A DNA stretch of 64,000 nucleotides. Source: Isurus oxyrinchus (Eukaryota). Positions within the stretch are counted from its first letter, which is position 1; each line of letters starts with the position of its first letter. The position numbers are program-made. This document shows, one piece after another, positions 1-58,600 of this stretch. The stretch spans positions 3,224,001 through 3,288,000 of the forward strand of contig JANJGN010000034.1 of the NCBI GenBank assembly GCA_026770705.1, given 5' to 3'.

Positions 1-3000
1 CTACAATTACTCATATTGGAGAGAGACAAGATCATATGTTCAATGATATATCAGTATATTCCTGGCTTTTCGTTGTTTGCAGCAAATGTGATATGCAATC
101 AATTGAGACATCAGTAGCATTGCCTATATTTCAGAATATTTGGAAAACAAGCATTTGACGCAGAACAGATAGACATTAGCCAAAAAAAGCACTAAAGTAC
201 AATGAAAGACAGGCCTGTTCCACTCACCGGCAATCTCCAAAGCAGCTTTTAGCTCATCTAAACCTAAGAGAATGCAGGAAGCGGAAAATTAACTAAACCA
301 CAGATATTGTCACCACGTTCACCAAAATGAGGGTGAAGGAATTTTCGTCTCTGCAAAGACAGCCTGAGATCTCATAGCTGTATATTACTTAGGTGCATAT
401 TTTGAAGATAATTTAAACCATCGGCACCCTATAATCTCCTAGAGCACGCCTAATGGAAACGTTTCTCAGTCATTGCATCTTCCTAATGAAATCGTTGCTT
501 TTTATCAGGAGGCTTGAATGGGCTGGAAAATGTGCTGCCAAAAAAGGTGACATTCATTATTGCCCCTATCACACGTAAATGAAGCACAGCTAGTTCCTAC
601 ATAGGGACATGCGCAGGTAATTCTTTAAAATGGAAGTTGCTCCGAGTGGGGCACCATCTTCAATCTCACTGCGGTAGTTTGAATTACCCATTTGGAGACA
701 AGCTTTAATTTGCGCTAATTGTCCATTATTAAGTAACTTCCACATAGAAAGCTTGCAAGCCTGTTATTTGCTGACGTTAAAAGCCCTATACTTATTTGGC
801 CAAATTGAATGCGGATGTCGTCACTGTTCTTTGTTTGCAATGCTCAAATTCAAACAAGTATATTATTATCATAATTAACTGATTTAATATTTACATAGAT
901 TTTATTCTAATCATCTTGCTTTTTTATGAATTGGATATGTCAGACTTTTGCAGGTTGTAAATTCAAATGTATTTGAAACATGATTATCCAACAGTTATAT
1001 TGAATCTGAATTTGCGAAGTGAGACACCAGGTGTGTGGTGTTGTAGAACTCGTCCATTGAGAAGGTACAGCGTTCGCTGTTATTGCTTCTCCTTCTTCAG
1101 GTACCATGCCAAAAAAAAGGATTTAGTTGACCATGGAGTTACATTGAATTGGCGTAGGATTAAGCTTAGCAGGGCACTGCATTGGTTTGCCGTTGCTTTC
1201 GGCAGTTTGGTTGACCAGAAAACTCTCTCGCTCTTGCTGCTATCTATTGGGTGCAATGGAATGATTTACAGGCCGGTAAGAAACCTGCTAGAAGACGATA
1301 TGAGCGCATCTCCGGTGGATATTAAGTCCTCCAGTGGGACTTGAACCCAGAGCTTCTGGCTGAAAAAATTGTCGAGATTCTACTCTTTGGACCAGCAGAC
1401 CTCCTGTACTCTTCGCAATGCTATGAAACTGACTGCAACTTCAGAGGCTCCTGGCATATGTAGGTTACAAGCAAAATGAACATTACTTAGATAGCAACAT
1501 TACTCTAAAAGGTAAAGAGCTCGTCAAAATGTTTCATATGAACAATTTTGAGCGATGGATTGCTATCGATTTGCAGAGCCAATGCCTTCGATATCCGAGG
1601 GCACGGCAAGTGATTACCTGGAAAGGGATCACAGCTACTTCTTTGGAGACCATCAGATTTAATGGTGGGGGACCTCGACACGTTATACTGTTGATACGAT
1701 TAGATAAAAATAGAAGCAGACAAGATCGATGTGATCCGGGTAGCCTTCAGTGGAGTTCTGTGGATGGACGGTCATGTGATAAATGTGCCAATGTCAGCAG
1801 ACAAACCCGGAACGATGAGGATGGATAATGTACCTTTTTGGCCTCATGGACGGAAGGTGTTGGGTTTGCAGAGGGGGGCGGTGAGTGGTGTTAAACACAG
1901 AATTAAAGGAAAGAAAATGGGCACAACTTTGTTGGCAACACCACATTTAAGTGTTTTGCAGTGAAAAAGGAGTTTGGATTCGAGCCAATGTTTGATAAGA
2001 ACGTTACGCCCAATCATTGGCTATGAGAGCAGAGTTGAAGCCATCATAGTTACATTCATAACCTCTACAATTTAATAACACACTTATTGCACACTTGGCT
2101 TCCTACATCTTCCCTGCATTATTAAAAGAACTGCTGCCCATGGCCCTAATCGAAGCCGTGTGCTTTCCACATTCAGCATTGTTAGCATTGGTTGACATGG
2201 TCTTCAGACAATCAGGACCTTGACTTTAGTATGTTTTCTATGATTTATTTTTCTTATGAATCTACTCTATGTCGTCGACCCTCCTTCTCTATGTATCCTT
2301 CTCTGCTCGTACAACCCCTACGGAGTTTTCTGTGCTCCCCTAATTTCAGACTCCTAAGCAATGCAAACGTTAATTGCTTCCACATTGCTTTCCATGCTGT
2401 CGGCTGTCGAAAGTATTAGCGCACAGATGTGGTACCATCATCTCTTTGACTGAACCTGTCGCTGAAAAATGTTCATCGGAATTGCTTTGGTGCGTTCCTT
2501 TATATAATCGTGCTGCATGAATATAATTCATGTTTGTTGCAACCTGTGAATTTGTACTTACGAAGTTGTCGTCAGTTTCAAAGGGGTACGGGATGAACAG
2601 CGGGACTTATGCTGCAATAGGTATGGCCTCTACTTTTCAGCCAGAACCTCCAGTTTCAATTCCCACTCCAGGACTTAAGAGCCATGGACGCTGCACTCCT
2701 CATGTGGTAAACAGACATATCATCAGCCCGCAAATCCGCCAGATACACCTGATGGTAGGCGGGAAGAGCAGGAACGTTTTCAGGTGAGCCATATTCCCAA
2801 AACTTGCAGCAAACCCAATGCAGTACTACGCTGAGTACAATCATGTACCAAAACAATCTAAGTCCATTGTCAAAAAGCCTTTTTTGGGTGAGAGGGGAGA
2901 TTTTTGAGACTGGAACTATAACGGGGACAGCACCATAGCTTGAAGAGAGAGATAGAGAATAGTTAACCATATCAGCTAACACGTTGACCATTTTCCTAGT

Positions 3001-55600: not shown

Positions 55601-58600
55601 GTATCATCTAGCTCAGTGGGGTTGGATGTTGCCGGGGCTGGAATATTACATCCTATTCCCCGGCCAGGTTGCAGTGTTTATTAATCAATGCATGATCTTG
55701 ATTTAATGCCTTCTGTGGGAAAAAATGACTGCACTGTAACCAGAGAAATTTCAAGTGCAACCTACAAGCAATTCCCCAGTTGTAAGCTTATGCATGTTTT
55801 TAATACAAGTTCTTACAGGAACAAAAACATGTCGTTCATTAACTCTTCCAAAGCAATGGAGTAGATTTCACAATCGTTAGTTTTCCTGTACGGTTGTTAC
55901 TCGGAATTACAGTGGTCATTGCACCAAAATGTTTGGTCACTCATCATTTGACAGATTTTCGGTGCAGCTCTGTTAAAACAAAGCAAACACGTGTCAATCA
56001 AACACTCTTAAACTTCACTTCTTTCTCCTAAGGGAGTCCTTACTTGAAGTTGTTAGACTTTGTGGCATTTTTACATTATGTGATGTTCTCTTTGGGCTAT
56101 AAAATATTTGGCAGTATCACACTGGGCAAATGTTTTGCCTGGCACCTGGGGAACAGTATAAAAAAAATCAACACTCCCTATTCTCACTCTCCTCAAATCT
56201 CCCACCTTGCTCGCACGCCCCCGTGTACATTCCATTGCCCAGCTCACATACTTCTCATTCTGTTTCTCCTCATACACCACACGACTGAACTGTTGGCTCC
56301 TCCTTCACATCACAATAATTCCGCCTTTCGCACATGTAGTTTAAATGTACAGGCAGCATGGAAGATCCAAACAGCTTGCAGGCCTGAGCTTAAACGTGAA
56401 CAACCTTAAAAAATATACTAGTATCTCACATCCACTAAGCAATATCCTGGATAACTTCAAAGAACCTGCGGTTTGCAGAACTGGTACACGTGCATCTGCC
56501 AACATCAAAGGCAAGTATCCATTAATCATAAAGCAAATTACTCTCAATGCTGAATTTCGGAAATAAAAACAGAAAATTCTGGAAAAAAGCTCAACGGTTT
56601 TGCCAACATCTGTGGAGAGAGAAAAGAGTTTACGATTTCAAAAATAATCATTTTGAACTCGAAACGTTAATTCAGCTTCCCACTCCAAAATGCTGTCAGG
56701 CCTGCTGAATTTGTCCACCATTTTTGTTCTTATCGCTTTATCATGCCTCATATATAATTATTAACCAAATTCTTATCAGGGACATGCCGGGAAGAAAGCT
56801 TTAGGATTGCGTTTTATCTACATCGATTGATCAAATGCACCCCCAGCTGTTTGTACATATTTGGACACTATGCGCCGTACTCCAGGACATTACATGCATT
56901 GGGCCTTTCTGTTCAATCGGCTCTAATTTGAGAACTGGATCACTGAGAGCTCCTGAGTGGGGAGTACACCTGACAGTATGTGTAATCCAACGTCGACAAT
57001 CAGGTGTTGCGTTCAGTCATGCTGCTTAGTTCCACCTGTCCATTCTCAGGCCAACCCGTTCGGGGGACTTTATTTCACGTTCCCAAAAGCCTTGGCAAAG
57101 GAACAAAGAGTGTTATCATCTTCTGAAGCTCAACGTTTCTTGGCGGCCCTAAGATTTTTCTCGAAATTTCTTTGCATTCCTCTCTTCTCACAGTGTACGT
57201 CTTTTGCCAGGGCATAAACCTTTCTCCAGATGGTGCTTTCTGCTCCGGCAAGGACACATTCTCTCTCTCTTTCCCTCTCTCTCCCTCTCTCTCTCTCTCC
57301 TTCACTCACATACACACATACGCACTATCTCTACCTCTCTTCATGCGTTCACTGTTCCTCGAATCGCAGTTGCGCATTTCTTGACTCTCTCCAGAGCAGC
57401 TCGCGCTTTATTTCACAACTTGGTGCTGAGACCAACCCTACACAGCGCTCACTGATAAGACCTGCCTGTTTATGTAAATATGCAGCTTCTTTCAGGTTTC
57501 GGCAGGTTCACGCAAACAATCATCTTAGATGGAATATTGCCGGATGCCATTCAACAATTTAAATATGATCTTTGTATTCGTCCAACATTGCATGCAATGG
57601 CTGCACAGTGTAATAACTGCAGGGTGCACTGTAGCAACTCACCAAATAACATTCGGCAGTGCCTTACAAATGAGCTCACTTTAACAGCTATGCTGACTAG
57701 ATTTCCATTGCATGGGAACCAAATAACACTAAAACATGCGCCATCCTGACTTGATACCCATATCGGAATTTTGTCTCCGATGCTGGGTCACGCTCCTGGG
57801 AGATCATCAACCACATTGATTAAACCTTCCAAGAAAATGACAGCAAATTTAGTGACACCCAATGCTGAGCAGTAAAACTTAGATTTTGCTGGCATTGTTG
57901 AGATTTCGTGGAGGTGTACGCGAACACATGCTTTTTTAATAACATCACCGCCCCCATTTAATTCTTACCTGCTTGTTTTTGATTTTCATTTAGCTTTGCT
58001 ATTTCTGCAAAAGAACAATTACAACTTGATTTTAAAAGTTACTTGCAAATACGCCTAAACACTTTTATGGTTAATACTTGTGTATTTTTCTCTCCGTAAT
58101 CCTGAACATATTTCAGTCCATGAGGGCAGGTTGCGATGATATATGGGTGAAAAAAATCATGGCTGACTTTCGATATACAAATTCCAGTTTATATTGCCAG
58201 TTTCTTCTGGAGGATAGAGGGAGAGAAAGAGAGAAAATAAATGCGATTTTATAAACTACATTTTTATTAACTGAAAATAGTGTAAGAATGTTCTGGGCAA
58301 TCACATTATGCAATGTAAGCAAATGGTCATACAATGCCCGGCTAAATTTGGCTGAGGTGTAAAAACTGTCTAGAACTTTGAGAGACTGAAAGAAAAACTG
58401 TCCTGCTCTCACTTTTGAAAAAACCTCTAGGTTTTATGACCCACCAAGTGGGAGGAGCAATGCACTTCTATTTAAAACTCTAAACTTCGGCCTCAGCTTC
58501 AGTCCAGAAACCTCGAGATAATGCATTGAAGAGTCAGCTTGTACAATATGATTACGTTTCTACAGTAGGTCTTTAACCCACAGTCTTCTGGCTAAAACGC

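What the first reader, a model, noticed from the sequence alone, without database searches (positions are those of the whole stretch)
228..58004. Exon classes recur in a modular order (A B A B C A B C [A] D B C A)
Class B exons share xxxLxxK[DE]x (EKTLTEKDT, ERQLKNKDR, NMQLSNKEK, EQRLRNKEK). Class C exons (ECEDKLHKN, ELENLQLKC, ELEDLQLKC) always follow B and all end A|gtaagta. Class A exons are 36 nt. A+B is 63 nt, or 21 aa, exactly three heptads. Inference: the gene grew by tandem duplication of multi-exon blocks long enough ago that the introns have diverged and filled with different TEs.
Basis: partly seen in the sequence, partly recalled or inferred. Interest (0 to 1): 0.7.

Follow-up and report, generated by a model that had tools for sequence, protein, structure and literature searches.

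The report
Repeated micro-exon modules of a helical protein
A 58-kb stretch of the minus strand carries twelve tiny, frame-compatible exons that recur in a long/short/short order and encode 30-residue helical modules, an ordinary product of exon duplication in a gene that could not be named here.

Summary
Twelve AG/GT-flanked exons of 36 or 27 nt lie on the minus strand at 228-58004. One frame, phase 1-1, is open in all of them.

- **Classes B and C** are true sequence classes: nt identity is 0.60 within and 0.29 between. An unbiased all-against-all comparison recovers them. The B motif occurs 4 times, against a mean of 0.02 in 100 simulations.
- **Class A** is mainly a length class with two subgroups. 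One subgroup is about as close to C as to other A exons.
- **Order:** every B follows an A and every C follows a B. Only 20 of 27,720 possible orders do this.
- **Similarity stops at exon edges** and introns share nothing, which fits old tandem duplication of a three-exon module.
- **Heptads:** A+B is three heptads, but the recurring unit is A+B+C, 30 residues. The register jumps by +2 at each C-to-A junction.
- **"Introns filled with TEs"** is not shown.

Gene identity is untested. Exons of 9-12 residues are below every protein tool's minimum, and the joined search was left out. I do not take the window for human.

The parts
57969..58004 (-). Exon A1, 36 nt, phase 1-1, subgroup A'
   Evidence: AG/GT flanks and donor gtaaga. 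Only the phase-1 frame is open. Closest to A3: 0.53 nt identity, 4 of 11 residues.
48583..48609 (-). Exon B1, 27 nt, phase 1-1, class B
   Evidence: AG/GT flanks and donor gtaagt. Fits xxxLxxK[DE]x. 0.48-0.59 nt identity to the other B exons.
47468..47503 (-). Exon A2, 36 nt, phase 1-1, subgroup A''
   Evidence: BLOSUM62 19 to A4, among the top 7 of 19,010 pairs of 36-nt candidates.
43850..43876 (-). Exon B2, 27 nt, phase 1-1, class B
   Evidence: BLOSUM62 23 to both B3 and B4.
40518..40544 (-). Exon C1, 27 nt, phase 1-1, class C (diverged member)
   Evidence: 0.52-0.56 nt identity to C2 and C3. Its donor flank matches theirs at 8-9 of 10 intron positions +3 to +12.
31230..31265 (-). Exon A3, 36 nt, phase 1-1, subgroup A', C-like over its first 27 nt
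   Evidence: 18 and 17 of 27 nt match C2 and C3; 16 match A1.
23217..23246 (-). Unverified extra candidate exon, 30 nt, phase 1-1, in the A3-B3 intron
   Evidence: Good acceptor and donor by the position-weight matrix trained on the 12 exons (9.8 and 7.0) and an open phase-1 frame. No significant similarity to any class. The matrix is circular evidence.
20319..20345 (-). Exon B3, 27 nt, phase 1-1, class B
   Evidence: BLOSUM62 25 to B4 and 23 to B2. Weak donor gtttga.
13124..13150 (-). Exon C2, 27 nt, phase 1-1, class C
   Evidence: 23 of 27 nt and 7 of 8 residues shared with C3. This is the only exon-exon hit in the self-blastn (13113-13152 against 7181-7220, 87.5%).
12013..12048 (-).
   Evidence: Open in phase 1, with a poor acceptor score (3.4) and donor gtgtgc. 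No likeness to other A exons (BLOSUM62 -13 to 5). Its start is B-like (14 to B2).
9330..9365 (-).
   Evidence: BLOSUM62 23 to A5, tied top of 19,010 pairs, and 19 to A2.
8531..8557 (-). Exon B4, 27 nt, phase 1-1, class B
7192..7218 (-). Exon C3, 27 nt, phase 1-1, class C
228..263 (-). Exon A5, 36 nt, phase 1-1, subgroup A''; last exon seen before the window ends
   Evidence: It begins a new module whose remainder would lie beyond base 1.

Best explanation
The window holds an internal part of one protein-coding gene on the minus strand. At least 12 micro-exons (369 coding nt) are spread over 57.8 kb, all in phase 1-1 and all multiples of 9 nt.

They form repeated modules of a 36-nt exon (A), a basic 27-nt exon (B) and a 27-nt exon carrying one cysteine (C). 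The order is AB, ABC, ABC, ABC, A.... The array most likely grew by tandem duplication of a two- or three-exon block, long enough ago that only the exons, and the C donor site, still resemble each other.

Each ABC module encodes 30 residues rich in Leu, Lys, Glu, Asn and Gln, with no Pro, Phe, Trp or Tyr. Hydrophobic residues follow a 3-4 spacing, so I infer an alpha-helical coiled-coil-type rod built of 30-residue segments with a register jump of two residues between segments.

Every exon is symmetric, and any forward exon-to-exon junction gives a sense codon. Any subset could therefore be skipped in frame, so the rod length could be varied by cassette splicing.

Shown: exon anatomy, phase, classes, order, exon-limited similarity, register arithmetic.
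Inferred: expression, helical or coiled-coil structure, duplication history, cassette use.
For: - All 12 exons have YAG acceptors and GT donors. Nine of 12 donors match at least 5 of 6 positions of GTAAGT.
- One frame is open in 13 of 13 exons, counting the weak candidate. The other two frames are stopped in 10 and 7 of the 13.
- Exons are 68% purine; the strand as a whole is 50%.
- B and C classes: 0.60 nt identity within, 0.29 between.
- B and C pairs top the unbiased all-against-all ranking.
- B motif: 4 observed against a mean of 0.02 in 100 simulations.
- Order: 20 of 27,720 possible arrangements.
- Similarity ends at the exon edges.
- Third-position excess of differences: 48/48/77.
- Composition of the 111 whole-codon residues: L 21, K 19, E 15; P, F, W and Y all 0; 3 Cys, all in C exons.
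- Heptad frame is constant within the modules A3-B3-C2 (frame 3) and A4-B4-C3 (frame 5), then 0 for A5.
- All 66 forward exon-pair junction codons are sense codons.
Against: - There is no transcript, protein or cross-species evidence. No eukaryotic sequence collection was open to me.
- Exons of 9-12 residues are below the minimum of every protein tool.
- The joined model was not searched or folded.
- Splice signal plus open frame alone are only modestly above simulation, so individual exons could be wrong. The most doubtful are B3 (weak donor) and 12013-12048.
- Class A similarity is weak, and A overlaps C.
- Global heptad periodicity is not significant (774 of 2000 shuffles). The 3.33-residue period is only nominally so (41 of 2000).
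- A conserved Lys sits at a position that the register assigns to the core.
- No first or last exon is in the window.
Confidence: 0.7

Rival explanations
1. The array is a set of alternative cassettes: only some of the exons enter any one transcript. Protein variants of different length or sequence would result, as in schistosome micro-exon genes or tropoelastin. This is an added layer on the best explanation rather than a denial of it.
For: - All exons are symmetric (phase 1-1).
- All 66 forward junctions give sense codons.
- Two extra in-frame candidates exist, 12013-12048 and 23217-23246.
- Tropoelastin's uniform 1:1 phase is said to permit cassette-like removal (bioRxiv 10.1101/2024.12.03.626628, passages).
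- MEG exons are mostly multiples of three (PMC10526429, passages).
Against: - No expression data.
- Most splice sites look strong, as in constitutive exons.
- Skipping a single exon would change the heptad register by 9 or 12 residues (arithmetic).
Confidence: 0.15
2. The exons are real, but class likeness comes from convergence on helical, heptad-type composition rather than from duplication of exon blocks.
For: - Class A likeness is weak.
- A exons share their opening pattern with C exons.
- 18 of 27 nt matches also arise by chance in this A-rich sequence.
- The shared C donor could be explained by selection for a strong donor after a weak exon end.
Against: - C2 and C3 share 23 of 27 nt, and 3 of their 4 differences leave the residue unchanged.
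- B exons conserve polar residues (N, K, D/E) that heptad packing does not require.
- The fixed order is hard to obtain by convergence.
Confidence: 0.07
3. The 'exons' are chance AG...GT-flanked open stretches in non-coding DNA, and there is no such gene.
For: - With the loosest filter the minus strand has 29 candidates against 19.7 +/- 4.5 in simulations.
- No external evidence for expression.
- No first or last exon found.
Against: - The B motif occurs 4 times against a simulated mean of 0.02, and the B2-B3-B4 triple is matched in 1 of 100 simulations.
- A single shared open frame in 13 of 13 exons.
- Similarity stops at the exon edges.
- The plus strand yields none of this.
Confidence: 0.03

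Closest known systems
Tropoelastin gene architecture (vertebrate ELN)
   Same: - Every splice site is phase 1:1.
- Exons are short and of alternating classes.
- One or more exons can be removed without changing the frame (bioRxiv 10.1101/2024.12.03.626628, passages seen).
Here: 12 of 12 exons are phase 1-1, the order A/B/C alternates, and all junctions stay in frame.
   Different: - Composition. Elastin's hydrophobic Gly/Val/Pro exons and its cross-linking exons (composition recalled, not from a call) are absent. Here G is 2, V is 1 and P is 0 of 111 residues.
- The pattern here is helical with 3-4 spacing of hydrophobic residues.
Schistosome micro-exon genes (MEGs)
   Same: Many very short exons, mostly multiples of three, spaced by long introns, with variation by alternative splicing (PMC10526429, abstract and passages).
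   Different: - MEG exons are mostly 15 bp, introns run 100 to about 5,000 bp, and proteins reach at most 189 residues with a signal peptide and frequent Pro and Phe.
- Here exons are 27 or 36 nt, 5 of 11 introns exceed 5 kb, and Pro and Phe are absent.
- Signal peptide and taxon could not be tested.
Tandem exon duplication in animal genes
   Same: Neighbouring exons of equal length and phase with sequence similarity (PMC9741552 and PMC3228551, search listings only).
   Different: As I read it from those listings and from recall, the described cases concern single exons duplicated side by side and spliced in a mutually exclusive way. Here whole blocks of two or three unlike exons repeat, so like exons are never adjacent.
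Heptad coiled coils with periodic discontinuities
   Same: - 3-4 spaced hydrophobic residues.
- High Leu, Lys and Glu, and no Pro.
- PMC4786415 (abstract and passages) describes what insertions into heptads do, including insertions of two residues.
   Different: - The +2 shift per 30 residues is not one of the usual tolerated discontinuities.
- The beta-layer nonad reading does not fit. The conserved Leu of B and the first Leu of the next exon are 7 apart, not 9.
- No structure was predicted.

Membership tests
Tandemly duplicated exon array | Repeated exons share length and splice phase | tested here: met
   4 B and 3 C exons are 27 nt and 5 A exons are 36 nt. All are phase 1-1.
Tandemly duplicated exon array | Repeated exons resemble each other more than they resemble other exons or chance | tested here: met
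   Met for B and C: 0.60 against 0.29 nt identity, top ranks among 39,865 pairs, and the simulations. Only weakly met for A: 12.3 of 27 matches within A against 11.4 between A and C.
Tandemly duplicated exon array | Module number varies between related genomes, or young copies share intron sequence | not testable with these tools
   No eukaryotic genome collection was open. Within the window the introns share nothing between modules.
Schistosome-type micro-exon gene (MEG) | Most of the coding region lies in very short symmetric exons | tested here: met
   12 of 12 exons are 27 or 36 nt and symmetric. Definition taken from PMC10526429 passages.
Schistosome-type micro-exon gene (MEG) | N-terminal signal peptide; small secreted protein (up to 189 residues) | not testable with these tools
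   No first exon is in the window. The 12 exons already give 123 residues and the array runs off the window.
Schistosome-type micro-exon gene (MEG) | Composition with regularly spaced Pro, Phe and Leu | tested here: not met
   Pro 0, Phe 0 and Leu 21 of 111 residues, compared with the description.
Tropoelastin-like cassette gene | All splice sites phase 1:1 | tested here: met
   Feature taken.
Tropoelastin-like cassette gene | Alternating hydrophobic (Gly/Val/Pro-rich) and cross-linking exons | tested here: not met
   G 2, V 1 and P 0 of 111 residues.
Canonical heptad coiled coil | Hydrophobic residues at a and d with an unbroken 7-residue register | tested here: inconclusive
   The register is constant within each 30-residue module but shifts by +2 between modules. 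The global 3.5-residue period is not significant (774 of 2000 shuffles).
Canonical heptad coiled coil | Predicted or solved helical bundle structure | not tested
   Folding needs the joined exons. That step was left out, and single exons fall below the 30-residue minimum.
Splicing-factor-dependent neuronal micro-exons | Very short exon with a UGC element close upstream of the acceptor (feature recalled, not from a call) | tested here: inconclusive
   TGC lies in the last 30 intron nt of 8 of 12 exons, against 0.39 of all 1,869 YAG sites on the strand. Binomial P = 0.046.
Mutually exclusive exon cluster | Homologous exons of equal length lie directly next to each other | tested here: not met
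   Like exons are always separated by exons of another class.

The most novel reading that the evidence does not exclude
The gene encodes an extracellular fibre-forming helical protein built, like elastin or collagen, from phase 1-1 cassette micro-exons. Each 30-residue module would carry one cysteine that staples the chains together. A two-residue register jump at each module boundary would create a regular break or beta-layer-like joint, and cassette splicing would set the fibre length. A coiled-coil analogue of the elastin/collagen gene design has, to my knowledge, not been described. Four literature searches found none, but they cover open-access text only.
Probability: 0.08. Interest if true: 0.65.

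Novelty: new member of a known kind. Interest (0 to 1): 0.33.

Why it matters
If expression confirms it, the locus is a clean example of a helical rod protein lengthened module by module through duplication of blocks of micro-exons. Its design (uniform phase 1-1, exon lengths in multiples of 9 nt) is otherwise known from elastin, collagens and schistosome micro-exon genes. It would also be a hard test case for gene finders: 369 coding bases lie in 57.8 kb, and no exon exceeds 36 nt. The regular 30-residue period with a two-residue register jump poses a small structural question about how such a helix packs. Otherwise it is an ordinary outcome of exon duplication.

Tried and rejected
1. **Exon-by-exon protein search.** The search for homologous proteins refuses queries under 40 residues (after a parameter slip). 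The other protein tools state minima of 20-30 residues, so no exon (9-12 residues) can be searched alone. The joined model was not searched or folded, so gene identity stayed unchecked.
2. **Nucleotide collections.** No related eukaryotic locus could be fetched.
3. **RNA genes.** Rfam and tRNA scans of the whole window found nothing.
4. **TE content.** 50 of the 51 open frames of at least 95 codons were scanned in Pfam, and none reached a family cut-off. The best was a GAG-pre-integrase match at E = 0.0082 and 16.3 bits, against a cut-off of 28.4, for 16843-17295.
5. **Dispersed repeat.** By recall, the 107-codon open frame at 59401-59721 looked like the tail of a LINE protein. A search among longer proteins found none at E <= 0.01 among 44 candidates, so this is unsupported.
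6. **Five- or six-exon super-module (A' B A'' B C).** Not supported. B similarities do not follow it; B2-B3 is the closest B pair.
7. **B exons as 'nonads' forming beta-layers (PMC4786415).** Rejected. The Leu-to-Leu spacing across the B-to-C junction is 7.
8. **C-like peptide on the opposite strand at 40629-40655.** BLOSUM62 is 30, but only 17 of 27 nt match and there are no splice flanks. Treated as chance.
9. **Upstream exons in 58005-64000.** No convincing candidate.
10. **Literature.** Searches for 27/36-nt exon arrays or 30-residue coiled-coil repeats encoded by exon triplets found nothing relevant.

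
Full report
**Source and strand.** The window has no N, 41% G+C and a CpG observed/expected ratio of 0.54. A full Rfam scan and a tRNA scan found nothing. The seventh needs a codon split across an intron (A|AC), which the phase-1 reading supplies.

**Anatomy.**
- Twelve exons lie between 58004 and 228 on the minus strand. Five are 36 nt (A1-A5) and seven are 27 nt (B1-B4, C1-C3).
- Each is flanked by a YAG acceptor and a GT donor.
- Every exon starts with the last two bases of a codon and ends with the first base of the next (phase 1-1).
- That frame is open in 13 of 13 exons, counting the weak candidate at 12013-12048. The other two frames are stopped in 10 and 7 of the 13.
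- The exons sum to 369 nt in a span of 57,777 nt. With 12013-12048 counted as an exon, the 12 introns are 772 to 10,884 nt long.
- Exons are 68% purine; the strand as a whole is 50%.

**Is it more than chance?**
- Splice signals and an open frame alone do not prove much. The loosest filter that keeps all 12 exons gives 29 candidates on the minus strand, against 19.7 +/- 4.5 in 60 Markov-1 simulations.
- Stricter filters give 10-11 candidates, of which 8-9 are the listed exons, against simulated means of 1.9-5.7.
- The similarity evidence is much stronger. I compared all 490 frame-open AG-27nt-GT candidates on the minus strand with each other, without using splice strength or class labels. C2-C3 ranks first of 39,865 pairs, and the three pairs among B2, B3 and B4 are in the top eight.
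- Such a triple occurs in 1 of 100 simulations. The motif was read off these exons, so this test is post hoc.
- Identity within B and C averages 0.60 and between them 0.29. The observed labelling is the best of the 35 possible.
- Similarity is confined to the exons, with one exception: the first dozen intron bases after each C exon are nearly identical in all three.
- Differences between class members fall at codon positions 1, 2 and 3 in the ratio 48:48:77. The pairs are not independent.
- With 5 A, 4 B and 3 C exons, only 20 of 27,720 orders put every B directly after an A and every C directly after a B.

**Corrections to the classes.**
- Class A is held together mainly by length. It splits into A1+A3 and A2+A4+A5.
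- Over the first 27 nt, A-A pairs average 12.3 matches and A-C pairs 11.4.
- A3 is closer to C2 and C3 (18 and 17 of 27) than to A1 (16). A and C therefore share an opening pattern, and A looks like a C-type exon with three extra codons, or the reverse.
- The bracketed [A] at 12013-12048 is in frame but has a weak acceptor and no likeness to other A exons. Its start is nearer to B2.
- A further in-frame 30-nt candidate lies at 23217-23246. The position-weight matrix used to find these two was trained on the 12 exons, so it is circular evidence.

**The encoded pattern.**
The register was worked out from exon lengths and per-exon residues with a running index.
- The 111 whole-codon residues are dominated by Leu (21), Lys (19) and Glu (15). 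Seven of the 11 split codons add another Glu. There is no Pro, Phe, Trp or Tyr.
- B exons are basic. Each C exon has one Cys, and the other nine exons have none.
- Hydrophobic residues follow a 3-4 spacing.
- The recurring unit from A2 onward is A+B+C, 30 residues. The best heptad frame is 3 for A3-B3-C2, 5 for A4-B4-C3 and 0 for A5, a jump of +2 at each C-to-A junction.
- Accordingly, a 3.5-residue period over the whole array is not significant (774 of 2000 shuffles reach it). A period of 30/9 = 3.33 is nominally significant (41 of 2000).
- A conserved Lys of B falls on a core position.
- PMC4786415 (abstract and passages) reports that two-residue insertions in a trimeric coiled coil break the helix locally. 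The nonad motif described there does not fit the B exons, because the Leu-to-Leu spacing across B-to-C is 7.

**Cassette compatibility.** All 66 forward exon-to-exon junctions give sense codons (E, D, G, K, N or S), so any subset of exons stays in frame. Uniform 1:1 phase with alternating exon classes is what the tropoelastin preprint describes as permitting cassette-like removal (10.1101/2024.12.03.626628, passages). Schistosome micro-exon genes share the short symmetric exons but differ in exon size, intron size and composition (PMC10526429, abstract and passages).

**Introns.**
- Self-comparison finds no intron-to-intron likeness between modules.
- It does find one dispersed family of about 300-430 nt at roughly 66-72% identity, in both orientations, and a few shorter pairs. 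Together these cover 3,244 of 64,000 bases.
- Fifty of the 51 open frames of at least 95 codons were scanned in Pfam, and none reached a cut-off.
- A protein search with the longest open frame of the dispersed family found nothing.
- The statement that the introns are filled with different transposable elements is therefore neither shown nor excluded. No repeat library was at hand.

**What stayed unchecked.**
- Gene identity, organism, expression and cross-species module number.
- Exons of 9-12 residues are below the minimum of every protein tool.
- The only open nucleotide collection holds prokaryotes, and I did not scan it.
- Supplementary files of papers were not consulted.
- Literature searches for a like architecture returned nothing relevant. 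They cover open-access text only.

**Verdict.** This is a real and tidy modular micro-exon array on the minus strand, best explained by old tandem duplication of a two- or three-exon block encoding 30-residue helical segments. The kind of thing is known, this instance is unnamed, and interest is moderate.

Noticed in passing
window 9062-9091: An uninterrupted run of about 30 G on the plus strand (C on the gene strand) sits in the 772-nt intron between A4 and B4.
   Followed up: no
window 42916-43348, 35787-36205 (inverted), 46836-47143, 45735-46022, 59363-59541: A dispersed repeat family of about 180-430 nt at 66-72% identity, in both orientations, lies in four different introns and upstream of A1. 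It has no Pfam match. A search with one of its open frames found no protein relatives. By recall it resembles the 3' tail of a LINE, but this is unsupported.
   Followed up: partly
window 40629-40655 (+): The strand opposite to the gene, 85 nt upstream of exon C1, encodes an 8-residue stretch that scores BLOSUM62 30 against C2 and C3. Only 17 of 27 nt match and there are no splice flanks, so it is probably chance.
   Followed up: yes
window 1113-1366 and 2634-2885: An inverted pair of about 255 nt at 66.7% identity lies in the C3-A5 intron.
   Followed up: no
window 7181-7191, 13113-13123, 40507-40517: The intron bases just after all three C exons are nearly identical (8-9 of 10 at positions +3 to +12), although C1's exon has diverged. 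C exons end in A rather than G, so a near-perfect donor may compensate.
   Followed up: partly
last 30 intron nt before each of the 12 exons: TGC occurs upstream of 8 of 12 acceptors, four of them as tgcag. The rate at all YAG sites on the strand is 0.39, giving binomial P = 0.046.
   Followed up: partly
window 52489-53564: A patch of degenerate short tandem repeats (periods 16 and 21) produces similar pseudo-peptides in several frames on both strands.
   Followed up: no
window 43652-43681, 51515-51549, 57260-57299: Three dinucleotide microsatellites, (TA)15, (GA)17 and (TC)20, lie in introns. The first is about 170 nt downstream of exon B2.
   Followed up: no
window 16843-17295 (-): A 151-codon open frame has a sub-threshold Pfam match to the GAG-pre-integrase domain (E = 0.0082, 16.3 bits against a cut-off of 28.4). 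It may be a decayed LTR-retroelement remnant in the B3-C2 intron.
   Followed up: no
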